From assembly GCF_004010195.1 (NCBI RefSeq), contig NC_057715.1:30018033-30082032 (forward strand): a DNA stretch of 64,000 bases. Reading direction: 5' to 3'. Each line of letters opens with the position of its first letter. The first letter of the stretch is position 1. The DNA comes from Chiloscyllium plagiosum. Its lineage: Eukaryota. A model generated the notes under the pieces. The model searched no databases and was not told the origin of the DNA. It saw only the letters and a program-made list of their open reading frames with translations. This document shows positions 6,300-62,100 of this stretch, one piece after another. The translations under genes and the position numbers were made by a program.

Positions 6300-6532
6300 T
6301 AAAACAAAAACAAAAGAACTGCGGATGCTGTAAATCAGAAACAAATGATCCTGGAAAAGCTCAGCAGGTCTGACAGCATCTGTAGACAGTAATCAGAGTT
6401 AATGATTCGGGTCATGTGACCCTTCCTGAGTTCTGAGGAAGGTTTACTCAACCAGAAAAGTTAACTTTGATTTCTCTCCACAGATGCTGCCAGACCTGCT
6501 GAACTTTTCCAGCAATTTCTGTTTTTATTTCA
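6300..6532. mobile_element. Inverted pair of PLE terminal repeats joined at their hammerhead motifs
   Basis: CTGGAAAAGCTCAGCAGGTCTGACAGCATCTGT vs ACAGATGCTGCCAGACCTGCTGAACTTTTCCAG; centre CCTTCCTGAGTTCTGAGGAAGG; + strand HHR-like motif 6429-6466. Confidence 0.75.
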
Positions 6533-13734: not shown

Positions 13735-15238
13735 AATTAAAAATCACAGAGCACCAGGTGCACCAGAGCACCAGGTCTAACAGGTTTATTTGGAAGCACT
13801 ACCTTATGGAGCACTGCTCCTTCATCAGGTGGTTGTGGAGTATAAGATCATAAGGCACAAAATTTATAGCAAACAATTATAGTATCAGACAGTGATATAT
13901 TGAACAAACCTGGATTTCTAAGTCTTTCATTTTTTTAGAACGCAGGTTTTGGTTCGTTATTACGAAAATCTCAGAACACCTTTTAAGTCATCTTCTCGAG
14001 ATAAGGTATTATAACAAAGATGACATCTCAGTTCAGACAAAGAATTAAAGGTGTGAGGTCAGAGTCTGTCTGTATCCCAATCTTGAGTCACACTGGTTCT
14101 ATTTTCAAAGTGGAATTTACAAACTATTACATAGATTGACTGCCTGCAGATTGTGCATTTTACTTGCAAATATAATTCTGCAAATACAATTCTGCAAATG
14201 TGGGCGGCACGGTGGCACAGTGGTTAGCACTGCTGCCTCACAGTGCCAGAGACCCGGGTTCAATTCCCGCCTCAGGCGACTGACTGTGTGGAGTTTGCAC
14301 GTTCTCCCCGTGTCTGCGTGGGTTTCCTCCGGGTGCTCCGGTTTCCTCCCACAGTCCAAAGATGTGCAGGTCAGGTGAATTGGCCATGCTAAATTGCCCA
14401 TCGTGTTAGGTAAGGGGTAAATGTAGGGGTATGGCTGGGTTACACTTCGGCGGGTCGGTTGGACTTGTTGGGCTGAAGGGCCTGTTTCCACGCTGTAATG
14501 TAATGTAATCTAAACAACTTCACCCCATAGACTTGAATTTGTGTGCGCATGCATGACAGAGAGAGAGAGCAAGAGTGAATATATGCATTTGAGAGTGTGT
14601 ACGCATGAGTGTGAGTGCATATGAGTGTGTGTGTTTGCACGTGTGAAAGCTACACGCAAACACACACTTTCTCACGTGCACTCACATGCACACACTCTCT
14701 CTCATGCACACACACACAAAACATATACAAGTCTATAGGGTGAATTTGTATTTGCAGAATTATATCAGCAGATACATTCTATTTTGCTCAAAAAATGCAC
14801 AATCTGCAGGCAGTCAATCCATGTAATATTTTATAAATTCCACTTTGGAAGTAGAACCAGTCTGACTCAGGATTGGGATACAGACGGACTCTAACCTCAC
14901 ATCTTTAATGCACTGTCTGAACGGAGATGTCATCTTTTGTTAAAATACCTTGTTATTTCGAGAATGTGACTTAAAAGAAGTTTTGCGATTTACATATTAA
15001 TGAACCAAAACCTGCATTCTAAAAGATGAAAGGCTTAACAATCCAGGTTTGTTCAATATATCACTGTATGACACTGTAAGCGTTTGTTATAAATTGTGTT
15101 GTATGATCCTATACTCCACAACCACCTGATAAAATAGCAGCCCTCTGAAAGCTAGTGCTTCCAAATAAACCTGTTGGACTATAACCTGGTGTTGTGAGAT
15201 TTTTAAGTTTTTCCAACTCAGTTCAAGCACCAGCTCCT
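13735..15238. mobile_element. About 1.5 kb foldback of two inverted PLE 3' UTR/terminal repeats with HHR motifs near both outer ends
   Basis: Left arm (minus, 13735-14640, split by HE1) is the reverse complement of the right arm (14650-15238), e.g. GAGGTCAGAGTCTGTCTGTATCCCAATC vs GATTGGGATACAGACGGACTCTAACCTC; HHR motifs 13797-13831(-) and 15123-15157(+); inserted in an older PLE C-terminus (IGLLHYSN | LEKQHFIF). Confidence 0.8.
14202..14512 (+). mobile_element. HE1-type SINE, CpG-rich young copy
   Basis: Well-preserved head, A/B boxes, V-domain and tail; CpGs retained. Confidence 0.95.
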
Positions 15239-23198: not shown

Positions 23199-24043
23199 TG
23201 GAATGGAGGGAAGGTCTTATGAGGAAAGGCTGAGGGACTTGAGGCTGTTTTCATTAGAGAGAAGAAGTCTGAGAGGTGACTTAATTGAAACATATAAGAT
23301 AATCAGAGGGTTAGATAGGGTGGATAGTGAGAACTTCTTTCCTCGGATGGAGATGCTAGCATGGGGGGACATAACTTTATATTGAGGGGTGATAGATATT
23401 GGACAGATGTCAGAGGTAGTTTCTTTACTCAGAGTAGTAGGGGTGTGGAATGCACTGCCGGCAATAGTAGTAGACTCGCCAACTTTGAGGGCACGTAAAT
23501 GGTCATTGGCTCAACATATAGAACATAGAACATTACAGCGCAGTACAGGCCCTTCGGCCCTCGATGCTGCGCCGCCCTGTCATACTAATCTGAAGCCCAT
23601 CTAACCTACACTATTCAATGTACATCCATATGCCTGTCCAATGACGACTTAAATGCACCTAAACTTGGCGAATCTACTACTGTTGCAGGCAAAGCATTCC
23701 ATACCCTTACTACTCTCTGAGTAAAGAAACTACCTCTGACATCTGTCTTATACCTATCTCCCCTCATTTTAAAGTTGTGTCCCCTCGTGGTTGCGGTCCC
23801 CATACTTGGAAAAAGGCTCTCCCTGTCCACCCTATCTAACCCTCTGATTATCTTGTATGTCTCTAAAATTAACCTGGAAATGCCCACTGAGGGTGGAATC
23901 GAACCCAGGTTCGCGGCGCTGTGAGGCAGCAGTTTTAACCACTGAGCTGCCATGCCACCCATATGGATGAAAGTGTAGGATAGACAAGCTTCAGGTTGGT
24001 TCCACAGATCAGCGCAACATCGAGGGCTGTAATGTTCTATGTT
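23199..24043 (+). mobile_element. CR1 3' end (ATGTTCT-tail subfamily), split by the 23520-23960 insertion
   Basis: MEGRSYEERLRDLRLFSLERRSLRGDL; resumes at 23961 and ends AATGTTCTATGTT. Confidence 0.85.
23520..23960 (-). mobile_element. Chimeric retroposon: HE1 tRNA-like head (23960-23888) fused to about 345 bp of CR1 3' end (23865-23520)
   Basis: CATAT at 23515-23519 and 23960-23964 flanks both parts; the host CR1 reads continuously across the insertion; B box GGTTCGATTCC. Confidence 0.75.
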
Positions 24044-43870: not shown

Positions 43871-45178
43871 AAAGAAAACATTAGATTATTTTGCTCTCTG
43901 CCTCCTTCTCCAGCAACTGTCAAAATGCATCAATTGGCCATGTATGCACTCATGCCTCTGTGCAGCAATTGTGGAACCTCTACTGTAGTGCCTTTCACAA
44001 ACTCAGAATGTGCCAAAGTGCTTCAAAGCCAAAATAGATTTCAGTAATATCATCACAGTCACAGTGTAGTGAAACATGGCAACTGATACATGCACAATGA
44101 GATAAATCGCCCAAGTTGGCCTGGATATACTACACGTGCACATCTTCACGTGGTCAGCTAGGAGGTATACCCTACCAGAACTATTTCCCCAAAGTCTAAA
44201 AAATTCCTCTTTTACATAACAGATCGTCTGCAGTTTCTCCAGCATTCTCTGTGTTTATTTCAGATTGCCAGCATCCACTATATTTTATTTTACTGGATGT
44301 TTATAGGTAGCTTCCTTTGAGGTCATCATTGAGCAGCATCACTTTGCTGCTGGCAACAAAATTTGGGTTATTAATTTTTCAAAGATGCAATGTCGTTTTC
44401 CTCATTGACAGTCAATAATAGAAAGTCACATTCCATCTACCATTCAAGGAATTCACCACTGAAAAATTTCTGATAAAGAAAACCTCAAAAAGCTGGGATA
44501 AAGTTAAGATTTCATTGGCAGCTGTGTGAAATAATTACACTAAAACTTACAAGGAAAGAATATTTTAAAAGCAATGAAGGGGTTGTACATTATTCTACAT
44601 ATTGTTAAAGAAGTTACTTAGATATGGATAGATGGATAATGATTCGGAAAAAATATACTTAATGTTGTTGTCACTATCAGGGATGATTTCTGGAAAACAA
44701 TTGTGCCTAGCAGGTTCTTCTGAAGTCACTAACTAAGTCAATAAATGCAGGAGTAATAAGATAATGTTCAAATTCTCCCAGTGAGAATGGCTGCAAAATA
44801 GAAAAAAAAACTTTTTTTCAATTATCTCCATATATATATATATATAGAACACGTGAGCAAAGCATGACACACCTTTACCATCCACTTGGGGAGGAATGGA
44901 AGTGGAAAACCTGAGTAGGAAGTATGCCATGCTTAATGATGTGTATATGGCCCATGTTGACATTGCATGACTTTGGCATCTTTTGTATACACGTGTTCCC
45001 TTGATTCTAACCATTATAGACAGTCATGCACCATTACAGGTGGCTGCACAATGACAGAAAATTCAGTGTAACACTCACTTTTGTGTGACAGAATTCAAAC
45101 ATAGCAACTTCAAAGTCACTGGATGAAGCAATGGAGTAGAATAATATTCAGTATCCTCTCCTTTCTGGGTTTAGATCC

Positions 45179-45348
45179 AGGTTAAATGGGTGGAGTGAAA
45201 GTGTTTATTCTTTTTTTTTCTTTTCTTACAGTCCTTTTTTTTTAACCCCCACACTACCGCCTAAGTGCGGTAGTGTGGGGGTTAAAAAAAAAGGACCGTA
45301 AGAAAAGAAAAAAAAAGAATAAACACTTTCACTCCACCCATTTAACCT
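45179..45348. repeat. Near-perfect palindrome: 82-bp arms, 6-nt loop, 1 mismatch
   Basis: 45179-45260 is the reverse complement of 45267-45348; loop CTAAGT; homopolymer run lengths match. Confidence 0.95.
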
Positions 45349-45633
45349 AAGTGCGGTAGTGCTTATTTTTTTCCCCAGCACCCATGGTGTGTGTGTATAC
45401 GTGTGAGACAGTAAAAGACACAAAGTGCACGAATCTTTATTCAAATTCCACCACCAGAAAGATAGGAAAACACCCGAGTGGCCAGTGACAAACACTGCCC
45501 TTCACATCAAAGGGCAGTGCTGTGTGATCAAAACAGTGAAGGGGAGGGTAGGGACTAAATCAAAATAGAGTTGGAGGGAGAAATGATGCACTCCACTCCC
45601 TGCGGCGCCCACCTCTCCCTGAACAACTCCAGG
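45213..45633 (-). mobile_element. 5'-truncated Tx1-like (L1 clade) LINE with 16-bp TSD
   Basis: ORF2 end LELFRERWAPQGVECIISPSNSILI* (stop 45557-45555); 3' UTR hairpin 45493-45519; A-rich tail; TSD GAAAGT(G/C)TTTATTCTT at 45197-45212 and 45634-45649. Confidence 0.8.
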
Positions 45634-47741
45634 GAAAGTCTTTATTCTTAAGGCACTGCTGTCAATTGTGCATCATTGTTTTCAGATGGTAGGTATTAAC
45701 TGGGGATTCAATTTGTCCCTATAAATAGACACAACACAAAAAACAGAGGTGCTCCTGTCATCTGTGATTCCATAAAGAAGGGCTTATAAAGGTATGTACA
45801 GATTGGCTGGTGGAGTATGACAATTTCAAAAGGTCCTATGTGATGTTAAATTTACCAGCTCACATTCAAGACAGTTCACAAAAACACTGAATCAAAGTAA
45901 ACCACACAAAAATTCAAATGGCAATCTTGCTTAGCAAAGTCAAATGTCTGACCAATCCCAGAAGTATTTCAATAGTCTTCCACTGTTGGAATTGGGTTTG
46001 ATTGTGTTGGATAGAGCGAGATGTACTCAACTTTTAAATTGCATTAACCAGACAAGTGGTTAATGCTAACACTAGTTAGAATGCCATTCCATTGCCCAGC
46101 TGAAAAGCTGAAAAGAAAATTGATGTCAGTTACAATGTTGATTTTCTGAATTTTCCTCCACAATCTCTTTCACCTGGTATGTGGTCATGAAAATTGTCTG
46201 TGATGCCAAAATATTCACGTAAAACAGAGCCTTGTACTGACTTTTTAATTTTCCCGTATTCAATAAGAACAAGACAATTGGTTTCGGCAACTTTCCACTC
46301 GGTCAATATTGCTGAGGGCAATAAAATAGGATAATCTGGAAAAAGAATAGTTTTGATGATGTCAGTATCTCCTAATGAAAATTTTAGGCTTACTTCCTGC
46401 TTAGGGACTAAATTTGATTTTCAGCAGTTTTCCCATAAGTTGTATCAATAACTACATCGTCGCAAGCACAGAATCAGACTGCTCTATGCAAATACTATGC
46501 ACCACACAAGTGCCTTCCCATTCTGTTTTTTCTAACTAGGTCCACCTTTTCTGCCTTTTTCACCTATAAACTGATCTACCTTCAACTTTTAAGGCATCCA
46601 TGCTATTCACCTCAGCTACTTCCCATAATTACAACTTCCACATTCTCATAATTTAATGCAAACAAGCTTCTCTTTGAGTTTATGATTGAAAATAATCCAA
46701 TATAATCAGAATAAAATCACAAAGTGTTTGAGAATTTCATTTCAGCTTTTCCAAAGACTAGCACCTGAAAATGCCTACACAGGTTTGCAAATTTGACGAC
46801 ACCAAACTAAAACATCCTCTGAACATTCATTGTTTCTTCACAGCAACAAGACAAGGAAAGTCCATTCCATTGAGGCTAGGCAGGGCAATGTAAGGTGATA
46901 TATATAATACTATCCCCAGCATCACATGAGAGGAATATCACACCCAGGGGCCTTACATATGCCAAATTAATTTTATCATATTAAGACTTGTGGGTTCTGG
47001 CCAATACAGGCTGTTAGAACTGAAATCTTAATTCTTCAGATCCAAACTGTGAACAATGCATAAACTAATCGATTACATCTAACAAAATGCTTTGTGGGTT
47101 ATAATGATGCATGAGTAACATGATTTGATTTTTATAATAGCTTTAATAGACAATCGATTTGTGCAGCATTTGGAGATTGTTGACAAGGTGATTTTAGCAG
47201 ATAACTAATCGAAGGAATCCTGCACCACAATCTGCTGAGATCCCTCAACATAACGCGCATGTTTATTTTGACCAGTTCTTTTATCAAATTTTAATATATA
47301 AATAATATTTGCATCTCAATGTCCTGCAGTGTAATCAATTTACAGGTAAACTATAGAAGTTGCTCTCATGCTGAAATCTGGATATCATAGACAAGAGCCC
47401 TATTGTGTTAGCAATGATCTGGATCTAATTTTCCATTTGGAGGTTTCATTTTAAGGAATTCTTGAACAAAAAGAATGAGGACAATTTAGGCGAGGTTCTA
47501 TCAATCAATCAGGTAGATACATGTTATAATGATAAGTCAATTTTTCACATACATTGGGTACAGTTCACACATGTGGACCTCCTAACTTTACGCAAAGTAG
47601 GACAAACCTATGGACCTGAATGATATATCTACTAGATTGGGCTTATAGCAGGTGGTGTGTGATCCAACAAGAAGGGAAAACCTATCGTCAATTTAGCTTT
47701 CAAACATGTTCTTGTGCCTCACAGTCTGAACCATTCAGAGA

Positions 47742-50720
47742 TGATGTGGAGATGCCAAAGTTGGACAGGGGCGGACAAGGTCAAAAGTTAAATGACACCA
47801 GGTTATAGTCCAAAAGGTTTATTTGAAATTGCAAGCTTTTGGAGCTCCACACACCTTCCTCAGGCTAGGGATGATAGAGACACAGTATTTAAAAGCAAAA
47901 AAATTAACAACTTTAAAACTAGCTGCCCTTGTTGAATCCTTTAATCAGTTAGGAGGTAGACTACTGATTAAAATGCAAAATCCAGATTCCTTTCGAGTCT
48001 TTGTCCCTAGATAATTAAACGTTTTATCATTGTTCAAGAAGTGATATCTCAGATTAGACAATGCACATTAAGTGTGAGGTCCCTCTTCGAATCTGTCTGT
48101 GCTTTAAGCTGAGGTTGGGTTTTATTTTTGTGAAAAGAATCTTAACTGAAATAATTCTGTGCGTGTGCGCGTGCATGTGTGCAGTGAGAGAGAGAGTGTG
48201 AGTGAGTGAGAGAAACTGAGTGTGTGTATGTGCATTTGGCAGAGTCTGAGTGTGACTGCTTGTGTGCATATGTCAGTGTGAGTATGCTTCTATGGGACAA
48301 CCCCTACACATATACAGGAACTGTTCAGATGAGGGGGAATGTGACAGTCACCTGAAGATGTTGAAGGTTGCATTCATAATAACAGAATATGAAGCTCAGC
48401 TCATCAATTGCAAATTTCATTGTGCCACAGTGAAAAACCATAGTGACCTCCTCAGATGACAGACACAGGATATAGCTCCCTTTGTCATCCAGCATTACTC
48501 AGGAACAGAGAATCTATGCCATGTTCTTCACATCCTTCAACACATCATTGACGATGATGGACACCATGCCATGATCTTACCTACTTCTCCACTTCTCACC
48601 TTCAAACAACCACTGAACCTTAAACAGACCATTGCTCGCAGCAAACTGCCCAGCCTTCAAGACGACATAGACCACAGCACCACACAATCCTGCCATGGAA
48701 CCCTCTGCAGGACATGTCAGATCATCGACATGGATACTATCACACGTGGGAAAACCACCCATCACATACACGGCAGATACTGATGTGGCTCGGCCAATGT
48801 CATCTATCTTAAATGATGCAGGCATGGATGCCCTGAGGCATGGAACATTGGCGAGACCATGCAGATACTACAACAATGGATGAAGAAACACCACACAATG
48901 ATCAAAACAGAACAGGCTCCCTCCCAATAGAGGAACATGTCGGCTGTCCAGGACATGCAGCCTCCGATCTTTGGGTGAGCATCATCCAAGGCAGACTTCG
49001 AGATATGCAACAATGCAAAATCACCGAACAGAGGCTGATAGCTAAGGTCCATACCCATGAGGACGGTCTCAACCATGATCTTGGCTTCACACTACTGGTA
49101 ACTCCACCATACTACATACTCCCACATACAGATTCACATATTCAAACTTGCACACATACACAGCCCCTCTCCCACACACAAACACTCACACATGTACACT
49201 CATATATACACACACTCTCACTCTCAAATGCACACACATACACGCTCAAACTCTCTCAAATATACATACACACACACTCTCTCTCTCTCAAACACATGCC
49301 CTCTCTCAATCACACACACACACACACATTATTTCATTCAAGGTTCTTTTCTGTCAAAATATAACACACACATATTCAAGATTTTTTCTGTCACAAAGGT
49401 AAAATATGAGGACCGTGATGGGCACCTGGAAGTACTCAAGGTTGCTCTCATAAGAACAGGGTACAATTCTCAACTCACTGACCGCTAGTTCTGACGTGCC
49501 ACAATGAGAAACTATAAATGACCTCCTCAGGAGACAGACACGAGTTGCAACTGACAGGGTACCCTTCATTGTCCAGTACTTCCCAAGAGCTGTAAAACTA
49601 CGCCATGTTCTTCGCAGCCTGCAACACATTATCAATGAGGATGAGCACCTCGCCTCCACTTCTCACCTTTAAACAACCACCAAATCTCAAACAGATTATT
49701 GTTCGCACCAAACTGCCCGGCTTCCAGGACAACACCATACAACCCTATCATGGCAGACGCTACAAGACGTGTCAGAATGTTGACATGAATACCACCATTA
49801 CACGTGGGGACACCTCCCACCATTTGCGTGGCATATACTCATGTGACTCGGTCAATGTTGTCTATCTCATACGCTGCAGGCAAGGATGCCCTGAGGCATG
49901 ATACATTGACGAGACCAAGCAGAGGCCATGGCAATGGATGAATGGACACCAAGCAACAATTAACAGATGGGAGTGTTCTCACCCAGTCAGGGAACACTTC
50001 AGCGGTCCAGGACATTCAACCTCAGATCTTCAGGTGACCATTCTCCCAGGCGGTCTTCGGGACAGGCAACAATGCAAAGTGGCCAAGCAAAGGCTGATAG
50101 CCAAGTTCAGTACCATGAGGATGGCCTCAACCAGGACCTTGGGCTCATGTCACACTACAGGTGACCCCATTGCACTAGACACTCCTACACTCACACACTC
50201 CTTCACATACACTTCTCTCTCTCTCTCACACACACCTCTCTCTCTCTATCTAACACCTCTCTCTCTCTCTCTCTCCGTCTAACACCTCAGCTTAAAACAC
50301 AAACAAATTCAAAGCCAGAGAAAGTGAGGACTGCAGATGCCGGAGATCAGACTCAAGAGTGTGGTGCTGGAAAAGCACTGCAGCTCAGGCAGCATCTGAG
50401 GAGTAGGAGAGTCGAAGTTTCTGCGAAAAGCCCTTCATCGGGAATTCAAAGCTGGACCTCATTCCTGAAATGCATTGTCTAATCTGAGATAGATCTTTAA
50501 AACCTTTAATTATCAAGGGATAAAGACTTGAAAGAAATCTGGATATTACATTTTAATTAGCAGTCTACCTCCTAAATGATTAAAAGATTCAACATGGACA
50601 GCTTGTTTTAAAGTTGTCAACATTTTACCTCTCTATCATACCACGCCTTTGGAAGGAGTGGAGCTTGCAATTTCAAATAAACCTGTTGGACTATAACCTA
50701 GTATCATTTGACTTTTTATC
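47742..50720. mobile_element. PLE array: inverted 3' end (47742-48290 minus) plus two tandem partial ORF copies (48295-49370 and 49400-50720 plus)
   Basis: PLLTFKQPLNLKQ / PLLTFKQPPNLKQ; CHGTLCRTCQ linker; NVVYLIRCRQGCPEA*YIDETK GIY-YIG; terminal TTCAAATAAACC..TTGGACTATAACC at both outer ends. Confidence 0.88.
50316..50442 (-). mobile_element. HHR-headed mini PLE insert with 10-bp TSD
   Basis: TSD AATTCAAAGC at 50306-50315 and 50443-50452; minus strand CCGATGA-AGGGCTTTTCGCA-GAAACTTC. Confidence 0.8.
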
Positions 50721-51039
50721 TTATTTCTGGATGAGGGTGAATCCAAGTGACTGCACTAAATCTTGTACCTTGGGGGCATGGATGGAGGCATTACTGAAAG
50801 CATAGATACCTAGGAGAAACTGAAAGCGAATGCTTAATAACCAAGAAGGGCAAAGATGTGGGGGACTGGGGGGTGGGGTTGCATGCAGTGTGATTCAGCT
50901 AGGTCCCACACCTCATAGGGACTGCCCTGACATGGATAGGTTATTCTTACCAAGAATCAGTCCTTGTAGAGATAAAGTTTCTTCTTCATATTGAAGATCC
51001 CCTCCATCTTCCAGTTTGTCACTCAGGACAATCTACCAC

Positions 51040-52010: not shown

Positions 52011-54270
52011 AACCGATAATACACAATTCTGAGAACATCAGAAAGAAAGTCTTGCTCTCCTAAGTGCACAATCCGTTACTTATATTTCTTAACGTTTCAG
52101 GACATACATAGAATTGCCACATTTGCACAACATGGCTGATCATCCTGGGGCAAAAATCAAGTGGATTGTACAACAGGCAGGAAATCAGCTTTACCCAAGT
52201 ACCATCCAGACAGTGTAAGTATAGTTTGGAGATGTGATTGAAACAACAACAAACAGAAGATATAGATAGAATAGAGTGGGAACAAGGATCAGGGCTGCTT
52301 CTTGCATGGAGAATAAATACCAACATGATGTTGTGGGATGAATGGCCAGTTTCTACTCTAAAGTCAATGTAATTGTCTACATTTTTGTTCTTAAAACCGA
52401 AAGATGGTAATTGCTTACATTTACTTTTATTGCCAGTCCATTTTTTCCTAAGATGGGTACAGTACACTTTACATTTAGTGTCGTCCAAACCTGGTATACT
52501 AGTATTAGCTTCTGCATGTATGCATGGTATGAATATTATGATGCAAACAAAATGCATTAAATTACTCATATGACCTGCAAAAGGTCATCACACAGTTGTG
52601 ACATTTTCAGCTTATCACTGTATCGCAATTTGCCTACTGTAGTAGAATTAGTTCTTTGTAGTGTACTAGATCTCACTTGGACTTTATAAAACAAACATCT
52701 ATGCCACAAAATCATTACCCTAAATGTAGCCACAATCTGTCCAGCACAGATCTGTTTTCCTGCATATTGCATTTCATAGTGATGCACTGTATTGATCAGA
52801 CTTTTCCAGGAAATAGATTAAGTGTCTTTTTACAGACAAAAACAAAAAAAAGAGATAAGAGTAAGAAACAGTATACAGAATGTGAGAAACCTAGAGGAGA
52901 AAGGGAACAGGCAGAAATAAGGAGGAAGACAGAGAATAGAGAATAAGGGCAAAAGAAATGCAATGATATTAAGAAATCTATATTCTTTTATCTGTATAGA
53001 ATAAAACAATGTGGTAGATTGCATGTCACTTATCATATCAATATCAATGATTGAATATATTCAGTTGTGATCCTCAAAACACCATTAAAGGTCAGTGAAA
53101 TGTGAAATCTTAGATTTTTCTGTTCTGATGTGCAGCCAGAAATATCACAGTCACTGAGCTCATATTTACAGTAATTTGCACTGGTAGATTTTGTATTTCA
53201 TTGCTGCGTTTTGTGCTGATTAGTTTTGTGTGGGGCCTCTGGATGTTGTACCTAAAAATAAGTTACATATCCAAAGTTAGTTGACATTCACACAAACGTG
53301 ATGCACTCCTATTAAGTTGATCAATAAAAATGTACAATTTAGTTTGCGTTATCTGTAGCATAATGCCTACGTTCTATAGCTTTTAAAGAATTGATGCCCA
53401 ATCCTATCAATATTGTGCATCAATGTCAATTGCCAGATAAAAGACTAAAAGATGCGCAGATGCCCGAAAGAATCTGCTGAGTCTCCATTTGTTGGCCACT
53501 GGAATGAATAGCCCATCATGATTAAAGGGTTTTTGAGGACCGTTCGTTTGGAATTTGGAAGACATAATCTGTAAAATCAGGCACCATGCCAGTGACTCCA
53601 TTCCTAGCACCCCTGTGATTTTACTAGAGACCCCCACCCATCCACTGTGATTTGACTTGTAGCAGAGGAGGCATTTGTTAATGCACTCATGTGCAGTTCC
53701 CGTGAAGACTTTCTCACTCAATGCTGTGCCTTAACTTGCAGAGGAGGGGGCTGATACAAAATCTGCAGCTTGCCACATGAAACCTGATGGACTGGTGGCC
53801 AGACAAAGCTAGTATCCTTTCCTTTTTGTGCCCCTTGTTCAACAACACCACCAAATGAGTTAGCCTCCTAAATTGTTTTCCCATTCACAGTCTACCCTTA
53901 ACCCCGCTCCTCTCAAACCCCCTCAATGGAAGTCCCAGCAGTGGCCAACACTTGCATTGGCTGTTGAGACCAGAGTTCCCAGTGATTTATTTGGCTGGCA
54001 CTTGTGAGGTGGGCCTTCCTCCCTGATAAGAGTGGAAAGTCTTCCTGTCGTTAATGAATAGTCCAACAGCCATTCACCGACTGGGAAATGAATTAACCAA
54101 GCAAGAGCAACCTACCTCCATCTTTTAAACAACTGGATGGAGACTTCCTTTCAGCATAAAATGCAGCCCTTCTGATATCCTGGAGGTATTAAAGCAGTAT
54201 TAAATGAAAAACAGGATTATTTATGTGTGAGGTAAATTTTGGGGAAATCACAGCATTGCCTAATTGCTGA

Positions 54271-54452
54271 GTTAAAAATCGCACAATACCAGGTTATAGT
54301 CCAATAGGTTTAATTGGAAGCACTAGCTTGTGAAGATGGTTGTGATGAAGGAGCAGTGCTCTGAAAGCTAGTGCTTCCAATTGGAATATAACCTGGTGTT
54401 GTGTGATTCTTAACTTTGTACACCCCAGTCCAGCTCTGGCATCTCCAAATCA
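54271..54452. mobile_element. Mini PLE insert with inverted 5' part and 14-bp TSD
   Basis: TSD TGCC(T/G)AATTGCTGA at 54257-54270 and 54453-54466; 54271-54329 is inverted relative to about 54365-54415; HHR-like GTGATGA-AGGAGCAGTGCTCT-GAAAGCTA-GTG. Confidence 0.8.
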
Positions 54453-55880
54453 TGCCGAATTGCTGAACAGTCACACCAGACTTGAAATGTTAACTTTATT
54501 TCTCCCACCTCAGAAGCTGCCAGACTTGCTGAATTTCTCCAGCACTTTCAGATTCTAAATGGCGTAACTAGGTCCAAGAGGTGGTGTCAGATCTCCAAGT
54601 AGCACCAAGCATATTGGACATTCTGAAAATTGTCAGCCAGTTGTTGGCAAAGTATGATTTAGCTCTAAAGTAGCAGCTTCTCTATTTCAGTCATGCTCTT
54701 TTCATATAATTATTTGAAAGTGCTTGTGGCAAGAAACTTTGAAATATCATAGTGAAAAAGTGATAGGCCACCATCTTTGAAATATAAAGTCCCTTCTGCA
54801 AAGTCAGAGTTAGTGGGCTTTTTCAACAGGATCTGAGCAGGGCAGGATGTACTCCCAGGTTGGTAGCATAGATATGAATTCCAGCCGCAGGGGCACTCTT
54901 TTATAACCAATTAGCCACATTACTCAACGGTTCTAAGTTTGGATCATTCGGTTTTCCATTAAACAAGCAAAATGGACTGAATTTTCGCAACGTCAGGCAA
55001 AGTGTATTATTGAGCCAAATTCTTGACACCTTGTCCGCCATAGGTCATGCGACTTTTCCCACATAATCTTTCACTTTTTACTTCACCTAGAACTAGAATC
55101 TATGGTGCATATCTTGTGGAATTGCACTTGTGAAACTGCTGGGATCTTCCATCATTATGCCATCAGAGCCATATTTGAACTCCAGCTGTGCACTACTTCA
55201 AATACTGTAAGCCAAGAACTGACATTCACACAGTGGTGCTGGAGTGCTACAGTCAGGATGTGGCCCAGAAAAGGGAAGTTAGCTCCTTGGTTCACCTACA
55301 ATAACCTCGAGGTGGTGGATGGTTTGGTGCAGAGGAGGGCAGTGATGCATCTGGCTGACCAAAGGAGGCCACACCACCAGCCAGCCTGCACTGAGACAGT
55401 AGCAGAGAAGTGTCCTGAGTAGAACACAATGCATAGCAGTGCAGGAAAATGATCAATGACCTTCAGTGCTCTGCTTGATGGTGGGTAATGCTTCTCTCGC
55501 TTGCCTCACATTCACTAATTCTGTAATTGCACATGCCTCTCATTGACATTCAGGGAGTGAAAGAGAATTCAGGGAACTAAAGACCAGTTAGCCTTCCACC
55601 AGTAGTAGAGAATTTAATAGAGTCTATTGTAAAAGATGGGATAAATAGACACCGGGTTGATAACAATCTGATTGGGTATACTCAGCGTGCATTAATGAAA
55701 GGCAAATTGTGTTTGCTGAACTTGAAGTTTGTTGACGATGTTACTAACAAAATTGATAAAGGAAAGCTGAGGGATATAGTGTACTTAGATTTCTAAAAGG
55801 TTTGTAATAAAAACCTCCTCTGAAGCTTGGTTAGGAAAATTAAAGTACATGGCATTGGAGGAAAAAAAAACTGACATGGA

Positions 55881-59156: not shown

Positions 59157-62100
59157 AGTCATAGAGTCATACAGCATGGAAACAGACCCTTCAGTCCAAC
59201 TGGATCACGCCAGCCATATTCCCAAACTAAACTAACTAGTCCCACATGCCTGCACTTGGTCCAAATTCATCTAAACATGAACTTATCCAAATGTTTTTTA
59301 AACATTGTAACTGTACCTGCATCCATGACTTCCTTTGACAGTTCATTCCACACACGAACCATTTCCTGTGTAAAAAATGCCACTTATGTCCTTTTTAAAT
59401 CTTTCTCCTCTTACCTTGAAAGTATGCCCCCTAGTTTTGAGCTCCCCCACCCTAGGAGAAAGATCCTTATCATTCCCTGTATCTATGCTCCTCATGATTT
59501 TACAAACCTTAATAAGGTCACCACTCAACCTCCTGTGCTCCAGCGAAAAAGGTCCCAGCCTTTCCAGTCTACTTTGATATCTCAAACGCTGCATTGTCAG
59601 TAACATCCTGGTAAATCTCTTCTGAATCCTCTCCAGTTTAATAATATCTTTCCTGTAGCAAGGCAACCAAAAATGTGTACAATACTTCATCAATGTCCTG
59701 TACAACCTCAACGTGGCATCCTAACTCTGATACACAAAGGTCTGAGCAATGAAGGCAAGTGTGCACAAAGCCTTCTTAACCACCGTGTTTACCTGTGACG
59801 CAAATTTCAAAGAATGATGTGCCTGAATCCCTAGGTGTCTCTGTTCTACAACATTACCCAGGGCCCCACCATTAATTTTATAAATCCTTTCCTTGTTTAT
59901 ATTTCCAAAATGCAATACCTCACATTTATCCCAAATGAACTCCATCTGCCATGCTTCAGCCCATTGACCCAATTGATCCAGATCTCTTTGTAATCTTAGA
60001 TAACCTTCTTCATTGCCCACTATACCACCAATTTTGGTGTCATCTGCAAGCTTACTAACCATGCCTCCTATGTTGTCATCCAAATCATTTATATAAATGA
60101 CAAACAAAAGTGGACCCAGTGCCGGTCCCTGTGGAATACTGCTGGTCATAAGCCTACAGTCTGAAAAACAACCCTCCACCACCATCCTCTGTCTCCCACT
60201 ATAAAGTCAATTTTGTATCCAATTGGCAAGGTCATCTGAATCCCATGTGATCTAATTTTATTAATTAGTCTGCCATGTGGAACCTTGCCAAGAGATTTAA
60301 TAAGATCTAAGTAAACAATGCCTTGCACTCTGCCCTCATTAATCTTTTTTGTTACTTCATTAAAAAAACTAAATCAAGTTTGTGAGATATGGTTTTTCTT
60401 GCACAAAACCATACGAACTATCCCTAATCAATTCTTGCCTCTCTGAATGTATTTAAATCCTATCTTTCAGAATCACTCCCAACAACATACCTACCATCAA
60501 TGTTAAACTCACAGGTCTATAGTTTCTAAGCTTCTCCATATTACTCTTCTTAAACAGTGGCACAACATTAGCTATCATCCAGTGCTCCAATATGTTACCC
60601 ATATTTATAGAATATACAAATATTTTTGCTAGGAGCCCTTCAATTTCCTCCCTAACATCCCGCCACATCCTGAGATGTACTTGATAAGGTCAAGGAAATT
60701 TATCGACCATTATATTTTTTAAGACCTCCAGCACTTTCTCTTCTGTCATGTGAACTGTGTTCAAAACAAGAATATTTATTAAAAATCCATAAGGAATTGA
60801 AGATGATGTAATTTCTGTGTTTGTTTGTGATCATTATTTATTTCTGAGTTCTCCAACCTTTATTTCTTTCCCAACAGTAAAAACTGACACAAAATAATCA
60901 TTTAATATCTCTCCCATCTCCTGAGCTTCAAAATAAAACTGACTTTGTTGATCATTAAGGGGTCCTCCTCTCTCTGGTTCCTCTCTTACTCTTAATGTAT
61001 TTGTAGAATCTTTTTGGATTATCTTTAATCTTATCTGTCAAGGCTATCCCAAATTGCTTCTTTGCCTTCCTGACTTCCTTCTTAAGAATGCTGTTACACT
61101 CTTTATACTCTTCAAGAAATTCAATTGATTCCAGTTGTCAATATCTAATATATTACTTTTTATTCTTGACTAGAAGCTCAATATCTTTATTCATTCATTG
61201 TTCCCTAATCTTAACAGCTTTGCCGTTCACTCTAACAGGAACATAATGCCTCTGAACTCTCGATATCAGACTTTTAAAAGCTTCCCACTTATCAGTCATC
61301 CCTTTACCTGTGAACAATGTACTTCAATCAACTTTTGAATGTCCTTGTTTCATACCTTAAAATTTGCCTTACTCCAATTAAGAACTTTAACTTTTATTGA
61401 AGACTTAACATTTTCCAAAACTATTTTAAACTAATAATATTATGGTCACTAGTCCCAAAGTGTTGCCCTACTAACAGTTCAGTCACCTGCCCTACCTTAT
61501 TTCCCAGGAGAAAATCAAGTTTTGCTCCTTCTCTAGTAGGGACATTTACATACTGATAAAGAAAATTTTCTTGAACATGTGTAACAAATTCTTCACCATG
61601 CAAACATTTAACACTATGGCTGTCCCAGTCAATATTTGGAAAATTAAAATCCCCTAACTATTACAACCTTACTAATCTTAAATATATTTGAGATCTCTCT
61701 ACATATTTGTTTCTCAATTTCCCTCTGACCATTGGGGGGTCAATAGTACAATCCCATCAAGGTGATCATTCCTTTCTTATTTCTAAGTTCAACCCATATA
61801 TTTTCACTCAATGATCCCTCAGAAATATTTTTATTAATTACAGTAGTAATGTTTTCTTTAATCAAAAATGCCACTCACCCTCCTGTCTTGCTGCTCTTTC
61901 TATCTTTCCTATAACATCCAAAACCAGAAACATTGAGCTATCAGTCCTGTCCTTCCCTCAGCTAAGTTTCTGTATTAACTATGACATCCCAGTCCCATGT
62001 TCCCATACATGCCCTGAGTTCATCAGCCTTACCTTAAGACCTCTTACATTGAAATAAATGCAGTCTAATTCTTCATAGTTACTTTGTTCTCTGACTTGTA

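What the first reader, a model, noticed from the sequence alone, without database searches (positions are those of the whole stretch)
45179..45649. Snap-back palindrome at a Tx1 insertion that copies back into host DNA
Seen: after the left TSD and T-rich tail, the sequence passes a small hairpin (CACTACCGC-CTAAGT-GCGGTAGTG), continues as the reverse complement of tail, TSD and 18 bp of host flank beyond the TSD, then re-enters the element at CCTAAGTGCGGTAGTG (45346-45361) through a CCT microhomology. Inference: during target-primed reverse transcription the nascent cDNA folded on the 3' UTR hairpin, was extended on itself and on the genomic primer strand, then jumped back to the RNA; a later replication template switch is the alternative. 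The result is a cruciform-prone, dsRNA-forming 170-bp palindrome.
Basis: partly seen in the sequence, partly recalled or inferred. Interest (0 to 1): 0.7.

Follow-up and report, generated by a model that had tools for sequence, protein, structure and literature searches.

The report
Fold-back palindrome at LINE tail
A young, truncated jumping gene carries a 170-base palindrome made of its own tail plus 18 bases of neighbouring host DNA, likely left when the copying enzyme doubled back on a small hairpin during insertion; it looks like a one-off accident of a known kind, with no function shown.

Summary
Arms 45179-45260 and 45267-45348 pair at 81 of 82 positions around a 6-nt loop, and a 16-nt direct repeat re-enters the element. 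Reads add three things. Two related organisms have the site empty with one copy of the 16-bp TSD, so the insertion is young and the 18-nt flank is host DNA. Other family copies end plainly at the 9-bp hairpin, so the hairpin is native and the fold-back arose here. A second individual has both insertion junctions. No listed read or contig crosses the palindrome itself, so it is not independently confirmed. The structure is a '4-before-1' short template switch. Timing during insertion (about 0.5) is favoured by strand polarity, young age and rough base rates. A later replication or repair switch (about 0.3) remains open, because the palindrome arm shares the left TSD's variant base, which may be derived. 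Tx1 membership was not tested. dsRNA and cruciform effects are not shown. Close kinds are in print: R2 snap-back, L1 templated insertions and hominid template switches. The scan noted related templated captures at Penelope insertions in this genome, but my look-ups did not return this event.

The parts
45179..45196 (+). 18 nt of host flank beyond the TSD; start of arm 1; template for the far end of the inverted copy
   Evidence: Present in the empty sites of organisms B and C (table 8: pieces run to 45196); paired with 45331-45348
45197..45212 (.). TSD copy next to the poly(A) tail (primer side in TPRT); has G at 45203
   Evidence: 15/16 identical to 45634-45649; one copy only in the empty sites
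45213..45243 (-). A-rich tail of the element, interrupted by a short non-A stretch that seems copy-specific; holds the arm mismatch at 45230
   Evidence: Sequence; loose ends of family contigs before 45235 give a poly-T consensus at agreement about 0.5 (table 7)
45252..45275 (-). Native 3' UTR hairpin of the family: 9-bp stem, 6-nt loop; centre of the palindrome
   Evidence: -15.0 kcal/mol as RNA-sense RNA, -8.9 as cDNA-sense DNA; family reads go from 45275 straight on to the 45362-45369 region (tables 5, 5c, 7)
45276..45345 (+). Inverted templated copy of terminal 3' UTR, tail, left TSD (G allele) and host flank; core of arm 2 (arm 2 = 45267-45348)
   Evidence: Reverse complement of 45182-45251 with 1 mismatch
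45346..45361 (+). Second copy of the 16-nt loop-and-stem stretch; return point through 3-nt CCT microhomology
   Evidence: Exact direct repeat of 45260-45275
45362..45634 (-). Rest of the 5'-truncated LINE-type element: 3' UTR and a 25-codon ORF end (45558-45632, stop 45555-45557)
   Evidence: depth up to about 5,900 in X18 at 85% likeness; 2,390 X18 reads run on past 45634 with further family sequence
45634..45649 (.). TSD copy at the 5' truncation; C at 45640; nick-site context TT/AAG at 45649/45650
   Evidence: empty sites

Best explanation
The palindrome is a single short template switch seeded on the element's own 3' UTR hairpin, and it likely happened while this LINE copy was being inserted. 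Shown: the element inserted at an empty site with a 16-bp TSD; the hairpin is the family's normal 3' end; the extra 86 nt are an inverted copy of local sequence plus a re-copied loop. Inferred: about 60 nt into first-strand synthesis, the cDNA (window + strand) let go of the RNA, folded on the 9-bp stem and was extended on itself through the tail, the primer-side TSD and 18 nt of host strand. It ran to the first AGG beyond the tail, where its 3' CCT could pair with the loop end of the RNA hairpin. It then jumped back to the same or a sibling RNA and copied about 290 nt more before 5' truncation. Second-strand synthesis fixed the product as a linear palindrome. It is probably neutral; no function is indicated.
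For: (1) The easy first step (9-bp stem, 6-nt loop, -8.9 kcal/mol as DNA) works only if the nascent strand is the + strand, which is the first-strand cDNA; a 1-in-2 coincidence under replication. (2) The return lands at the loop of the template hairpin and re-copies at least 4 nt, which is simple if the template is a released RNA (inference). (3) The only AGG on the + strand between 45039 and 45235 is at 45179, where the copy stops. (4) The insertion is young: empty in organisms B and C, and B differs from the window at 29 of 1,064 flank letters, leaving little time for a later event. The arm mismatch (1/82) fits that age. (5) A rough base-rate sum with my own assumed fractions favours insertion-time origin in 13 of 16 settings, by 1.6- to about 3,000-fold. 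Its inputs: 22 templated insertions in a set of 3,598 solo L1s (10.1101/2024.08.27.596794) and 4,017 hominid switches with copied tracts of median 12, max 128 nt (PMC7954356). (6) R2 cDNA 3' ends do snap back onto cDNA or nearby target DNA in cells (PMC11371274). L1 ORF2p extends RNA hairpins, copies DNA templates and jumps templates in vitro (PMC10830420).
Against: (1) Arm 2 shares the left TSD's G, not the right TSD's C. In both empty-site contigs the joint is placed at 45196/45634, which suggests C is ancestral. If so, the G arose after insertion and was copied later, or the arms were homogenised. The base was not printed and the placement may be a tool convention; I put this at only 1.1- to 2.2-fold for a later event (assumed inputs). 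(2) The copy ends 18 nt past the TSD edge, not at a TPRT landmark, so host duplex had to be displaced or resected. (3) The same '4 precedes 1' layout is reported many times in ape genomes without retrotransposition (PMC7954356). (4) The base-rate advantage reverses in 3 of the 4 settings with 1000-fold hairpin enrichment. (5) No listed read or contig crosses the palindrome. (6) The cell and enzyme data are for R2 and human L1, not this family.
Confidence: 0.5

Rival explanations
1. The element inserted plainly. Later, during replication or break repair, a nascent + strand folded on the 9-bp hairpin, copied 73 to 82 nt backwards and returned by CCT (four-point type 3-2-4-1, mirror 4-1-3-2).
For: Arm 2 carries the left-TSD base, which may be derived. 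'4 precedes 1' events and copied tracts up to 128 nt are known in apes. Existing hairpins are proposed to trigger intrastrand switches (PMC8794818). Fold-back inverted duplications form at yeast breaks (PMC11724301 abstract).
Against: The time since insertion is short. The tract is far longer than the typical 12 nt or 5-34 nt. Nothing is deleted at the site, although repair of a break would often leave a deletion (my knowledge). Base rates mostly favour insertion time (assumed inputs).
Confidence: 0.3
2. The event happened at insertion but through host repair: an aborted short cDNA snapped back and was extended by a host polymerase, then was joined by 3-nt microhomology to a second, separately made cDNA of the family.
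For: Inverted duplications of flank at L1 insertion sites are explained as self-annealing of ORF2p-made break ends with 2-bp microhomology (10.1101/2024.12.14.628481 section 9).
Against: The two such cases described there lie on the reciprocal end. Here the second piece resumes at the hairpin where the first stopped, within 4 to 16 nt, which one continuous RT explains more simply.
Confidence: 0.12
3. The palindrome is an assembly or library artefact on a plain insertion.
For: No listed read or contig spans 45276-45345. The contig of a second individual (X4, record 1) runs unbroken through arm 1 and stops at 45262.
Against: The arms differ at one site in a CpG-decay pattern (CG in arm 2, CA in arm 1), which a copying artefact would not be expected to make. 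The sequence returns to the forward path with a clean microhomology instead of folding back to the end. X18 had zero depth from 44700 to 45158, and contig graphs break or prune at repeats, so absence there says little.
Confidence: 0.07

Closest known systems
Snap-back junctions of R2 retrotransposon insertions (PRINT; PMC11371274, passages read)
   Same: The cDNA 3' end primes DNA synthesis on the cDNA itself or on nearby target DNA.
   Different: There the snap-back comes before 5'-junction formation, often after full-length synthesis. Here it is about 60 nt after priming, is seeded by the element's own hairpin, runs into host flank, and the element then resumes with an intact TSD.
L1 templated insertions and local inverted duplications (10.1101/2024.08.27.596794, passages; 10.1101/2024.12.14.628481, section 9)
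   Same: A short piece (under 250 bp) of DNA next to the insertion site is copied into the insertion; inverted duplications start from small hairpins with 2-3 nt microhomology; a TSD-like duplication is kept.
   Different: The inverted duplications described are on the reciprocal (5') end and in tumours or cell clones. This one is on the primer (3') end, inside the element, in an assembled animal genome. The orientation of the 22 templated insertions is in a supplement I could not see.
Short-range template switch mutations, four-point model (PMC5453318 sections 4 and 6; PMC7954356 section 8)
   Same: Left flank, reverse-complement tract, return; point 4 precedes point 1, giving a direct repeat plus a perfect inverted repeat.
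   Different: The tract (73-82 nt) is near the upper end of their range (median 12, max 128). The model makes no claim about mechanism, and RepeatMasker-masked templates were filtered out of that study.
Tx1-clade non-LTR retrotransposons (PMC4494074, passages)
   Same: Poly(A)-tailed, 5'-truncated, TSD-flanked LINE end; family reads show tandem joints (45516 back to 45235 and similar).
   Different: Clade assignment needs the RT domain, which this copy lacks; not tested.

Membership tests
Four-point short-range template switch | The descendant equals left flank + reverse complement of nearby sequence + right flank | tested here: met
   45276-45345 is the reverse complement of 45182-45251 with 1 mismatch
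Four-point short-range template switch | The pre-event state is known from a relative or ortholog | tested here: inconclusive
   The plain 3' end is shown from other family copies (tables 5 and 7), but no plain allele of this locus was seen; organisms B and C lack the whole insertion
TPRT snap-back / templated insertion | A TPRT insertion (poly(A) tail, TSD, empty site, TT/AA-type nick) | tested here: met
TPRT snap-back / templated insertion | The folded strand is the first-strand cDNA and the template lies within about 15 bp of the insertion site | tested here: met
   The 9-bp fold-back works on the + strand, the cDNA strand; the template spans the junction itself. Polarity alone has a 1-in-2 chance
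TPRT snap-back / templated insertion | The rearrangement is as old as the insertion (no plain allele; the arm copies the ancestral TSD base) | tested here: inconclusive
   Arm age fits (1/82); the empty-site base was not printed and the joint placement leans the other way
Tx1 clade | The RT domain groups with Tx1-clade elements | not testable with these tools
   Only 25 codons of the ORF end remain; 0 Pfam hits; too short for the locus search; no genome held
Tx1 clade | Target-sequence preference (common, not universal) | tested here: inconclusive
   Tandem joints with short spacers occur in family reads (table 5c); this site was not compared with the family's preferred target
Hairpin-derived miRNA or dsRNA locus | The locus is transcribed and processed | not tested
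   No RNA run was laid; no Rfam match in the window; no host exon identified

The most novel reading that the evidence does not exclude
The 9-bp hairpin at this abundant family's 3' end is a recurrent snap-back trap for its reverse transcriptase, so a measurable share of its roughly 10,000 copies carry locus-specific palindromes that reach into host DNA. That would make a LINE a standing source of new long hairpins (fragile sites, dsRNA or miRNA-like stems) and give a natural record of RNA-to-DNA-to-RNA double switching by a non-LTR RT.
Probability: 0.1. Interest if true: 0.6.

Novelty: new variant of a known kind. Interest (0 to 1): 0.3.

Why it matters
If the timing is right, this is a record in an animal genome of a non-LTR reverse transcriptase leaving its RNA, copying DNA backwards across the insertion junction and returning to RNA. 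Each step is known from R2 or L1 work in cells and in vitro, but I did not find this 3'-end geometry in the passages I read. The family has thousands of copies with the same hairpin, so the rate is directly countable in the assembly. As a single locus it has no shown effect on the host, and a known replication error explains it nearly as well, so a specialist would find it neat more than surprising.

Tried and rejected
No whole genome is held, so I could not count fold-backs across copies. No second family copy was found in the window. The hairpin motif had 0 hits in viral and metagenome contigs. A second 3' UTR motif had 0 viral hits and 1 metagenome hit; that hit, L001, matches over only 25 nt and was dropped as chance. 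The slightly raised X4 depth in bin 45159-45209 (4.66 versus 3) is not evidence for arm 2: the empty-site organisms show excess there too. The X4 contig running unbroken through arm 1 is not evidence against it either, since graph cleaning can remove such a branch (my reasoning). The idea that the 16-nt repeat is the TSD of a second insertion was dropped: 12 of its 16 nt are the two microhomologies. An inherited palindrome from the source element is excluded, because the arm contains this locus's own flank. A family-wide programmed fold-back is not supported: the listed X18 rows show plain ends (379 and 872 reads in same-strand and opposite-strand joints). However, the tables are capped (159 joints and 1,354 loose ends not shown), and a fold-back read would lie on the window without a joint. 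My first idea that '4 before 1' never occurs in replication (PMC5453318) is overturned by PMC7954356. A supplement search for event-type counts found 0 hits in 6 files. Pfam scans found no host gene: 1 of 47 stretches hit (RVT_1 at 59721-60206) and 1 weak hit of 7; only some of the listed ORFs were scanned. The ORF-stub references were in the wrong frame; the Pfam scan was redone in frame with 0 hits. Rfam gave 0 matches.

Full report
Observation. The window holds an inverted repeat with arms 45179-45260 and 45267-45348, 82 nt each, paired at 81 positions. The one mismatch is 45230 A opposite 45297 C, and the loop is 6 nt. It is the best-paired of the 8 short-range inverted pairs in the 64 kb. 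It folds at -94.9 kcal/mol with z = -23 against 200 shuffles. The 16 nt at 45260-45275 recur exactly at 45346-45361.

The element. On the minus strand, 45558-45632 encodes a 25-residue ORF end followed by a stop, a 3' UTR and an A-rich tail. Raw reads of run X18 pile up to a depth of about 5,900 on this stretch at 85% likeness. That is roughly 11,000 copies if the genome is 3.6 Gb; the size comes from an unchecked scan note, e1-8025441. In X18, 2,390 reads continue past 45634 with further family sequence, so this copy is 5'-truncated. The flanking 16-mers, 45197-45212 and 45634-45649, differ at one base. Contigs of organisms B (X5, record 9) and C (X8, record 16) run from 45196 directly into 45634 (table 8). 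The site is therefore empty there, the TSD is real, and 45179-45196 is host DNA. A second individual of organism A (X4) has both junctions (records 1 and 8). B differs from the window at 29 of 1,064 flank letters and X4 at 5 of 1,158 aligned letters, which brackets the insertion as young. That the host is a shark and that the genome has abundant Tx1-type LINEs comes from earlier scan notes, not from my tests. I could not test the clade: the stub has no Pfam hit, and two sequence look-ups in the scan's notes found no look-alike.

The native end. Family reads go from 45275 straight to the 45362-45369 region: 379 reads in four listed same-strand joints, and 872 in three opposite-strand rows that I read as the same plain end laid on arm 2. 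Loose ends agree (389 and 606 reads). The 9-bp hairpin is thus the family's normal 3' end, and the extra 86 nt are not part of it. Because arm 2 contains this locus's own flank, the palindrome formed in place.

What the structure is. Relative to a plain end, the sequence reads: left flank to the end of the stem, then the reverse complement of 45179-45260, then a return 4 to 16 nt behind the point of departure. The first switch has 9 bp of pairing and the second has 3. In the four-point notation of PMC5453318 (sections 4 and 6 read) this is 3-2-4-1, or its mirror 4-1-3-2. That paper saw no '4 before 1' events among 794. PMC7954356 (section 8 read) shows this was a filter effect and reports many, with copied tracts of median 12 and maximum 128 nt. 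The class of structure is therefore known.

When it formed. For insertion time: the favourable first step needs the nascent strand to be the + strand, which is the first-strand cDNA. The return is at the loop end of the template hairpin, and the copy stops at the first AGG left of the tail. The insertion is young, and one arm mismatch fits any age in the bracket, so it does not discriminate. R2 cDNA ends snap back in cells (PMC11371274, passages). L1 ORF2p extends RNA hairpins, copies DNA and jumps templates (PMC10830420, passages). Templated insertions numbered 22 in a set of 3,598 solo L1s in tumours (10.1101/2024.08.27.596794, passages; supplements closed, and they may show cases with this geometry). 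Inverted duplications at L1 sites are described on the reciprocal end (10.1101/2024.12.14.628481, section 9). A rough comparison of base rates favoured insertion time in 13 of 16 settings, but its key fractions are my assumptions.

Against insertion time: arm 2 has the left TSD's base. The empty-site joints are placed at 45196/45634 in both organisms, which is where they should fall if the right TSD's base is ancestral. The arm would then have copied a mutation younger than the insertion, unless the arms were later homogenised. The tool did not print that base, it places some equivalent joints in two ways, and both contigs lie on the same strand, so I weigh this at only 1.1- to 2.2-fold (assumed inputs). 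The copy also overshoots the TSD edge by 18 nt, which TPRT does not predict. My odds are 0.5 for RT fold-back and return during insertion, 0.12 for host repair during insertion, 0.3 for a later switch and 0.07 for an artefact.

Is it real outside the assembly? Not shown. X18 (about 4 in 100 of the run read) had no depth from 44700 to 45158. No listed X4 piece crosses 45276-45345, and 21,584 pieces were not shown. The CpG-type difference between the arms argues for an aged, real structure.

Function. None is indicated. There is no Rfam match, no host exon among the ORFs I scanned (not all ORFs), and I laid no RNA run. Template switches can create miRNA stems (PMC10710096, passages) and RNA hairpins (PMC8794818, passages), but the 30-55 nt stem criterion used in the former is shorter than this 82-bp stem.

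Novelty. Eight paper searches gave the neighbours named above. In the passages I read, I did not find a fold-back at the primer end, seeded by the element's own 3' UTR hairpin, that crosses into host flank and then resumes the element with an intact TSD. The library lacks most subscription papers and I read passages, not whole texts. I also saw the abstract of PMC11724301, passages of PMC4494074 and passages of the first version of the L1 rearrangement preprint, PMC11702581. I class the finding as a new variant of a known kind: a single-locus accident, interest 0.3.

Noticed in passing
window 45213-45243: The A-rich tail is interrupted by a 10-nt non-A stretch and a short A-run unit. Family contigs show a poly-T consensus at this place, so it may be a short 3' transduction or a source-copy signature.
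   Followed up: partly
tables 5 and 5c (joints 45516->45235, 45527->45240, 45550->45237): Reads and contigs of all three organisms show head-to-tail family copies separated by 8-24 nt spacers, as in the stacked LINE arrays that earlier scan notes describe for this genome.
   Followed up: no
joint 45269->45345: As I read the joint, 766 X18 reads carry a one-base variant in one stem strand of the native hairpin (probably CpG decay or a subfamily change) that would weaken the stem; useful as an internal control for snap-back rates.
   Followed up: no
window 47741-50722 and 54270-54453: Several 55-129 nt inverted and direct repeats, with a 1,058-1,084 nt spaced duplication at 48478-50189; these look like Penelope-type retroelement pieces (label recalled, not tested).
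   Followed up: no
window 6339-6524; 23355-23794; 14514-14749: Older imperfect inverted repeats (74-86% paired), including a 92-nt-arm hairpin with a 2-nt loop at 6339-6524.
   Followed up: no
window 59721-60206 (-): Reverse transcriptase fragment, Pfam RVT_1, E = 4.3e-08; clade not determined.
   Followed up: no
window 45494-45524: A second strong hairpin (13-bp stem) in the same 3' UTR, kept in both the minimum-energy and the centroid fold.
   Followed up: no
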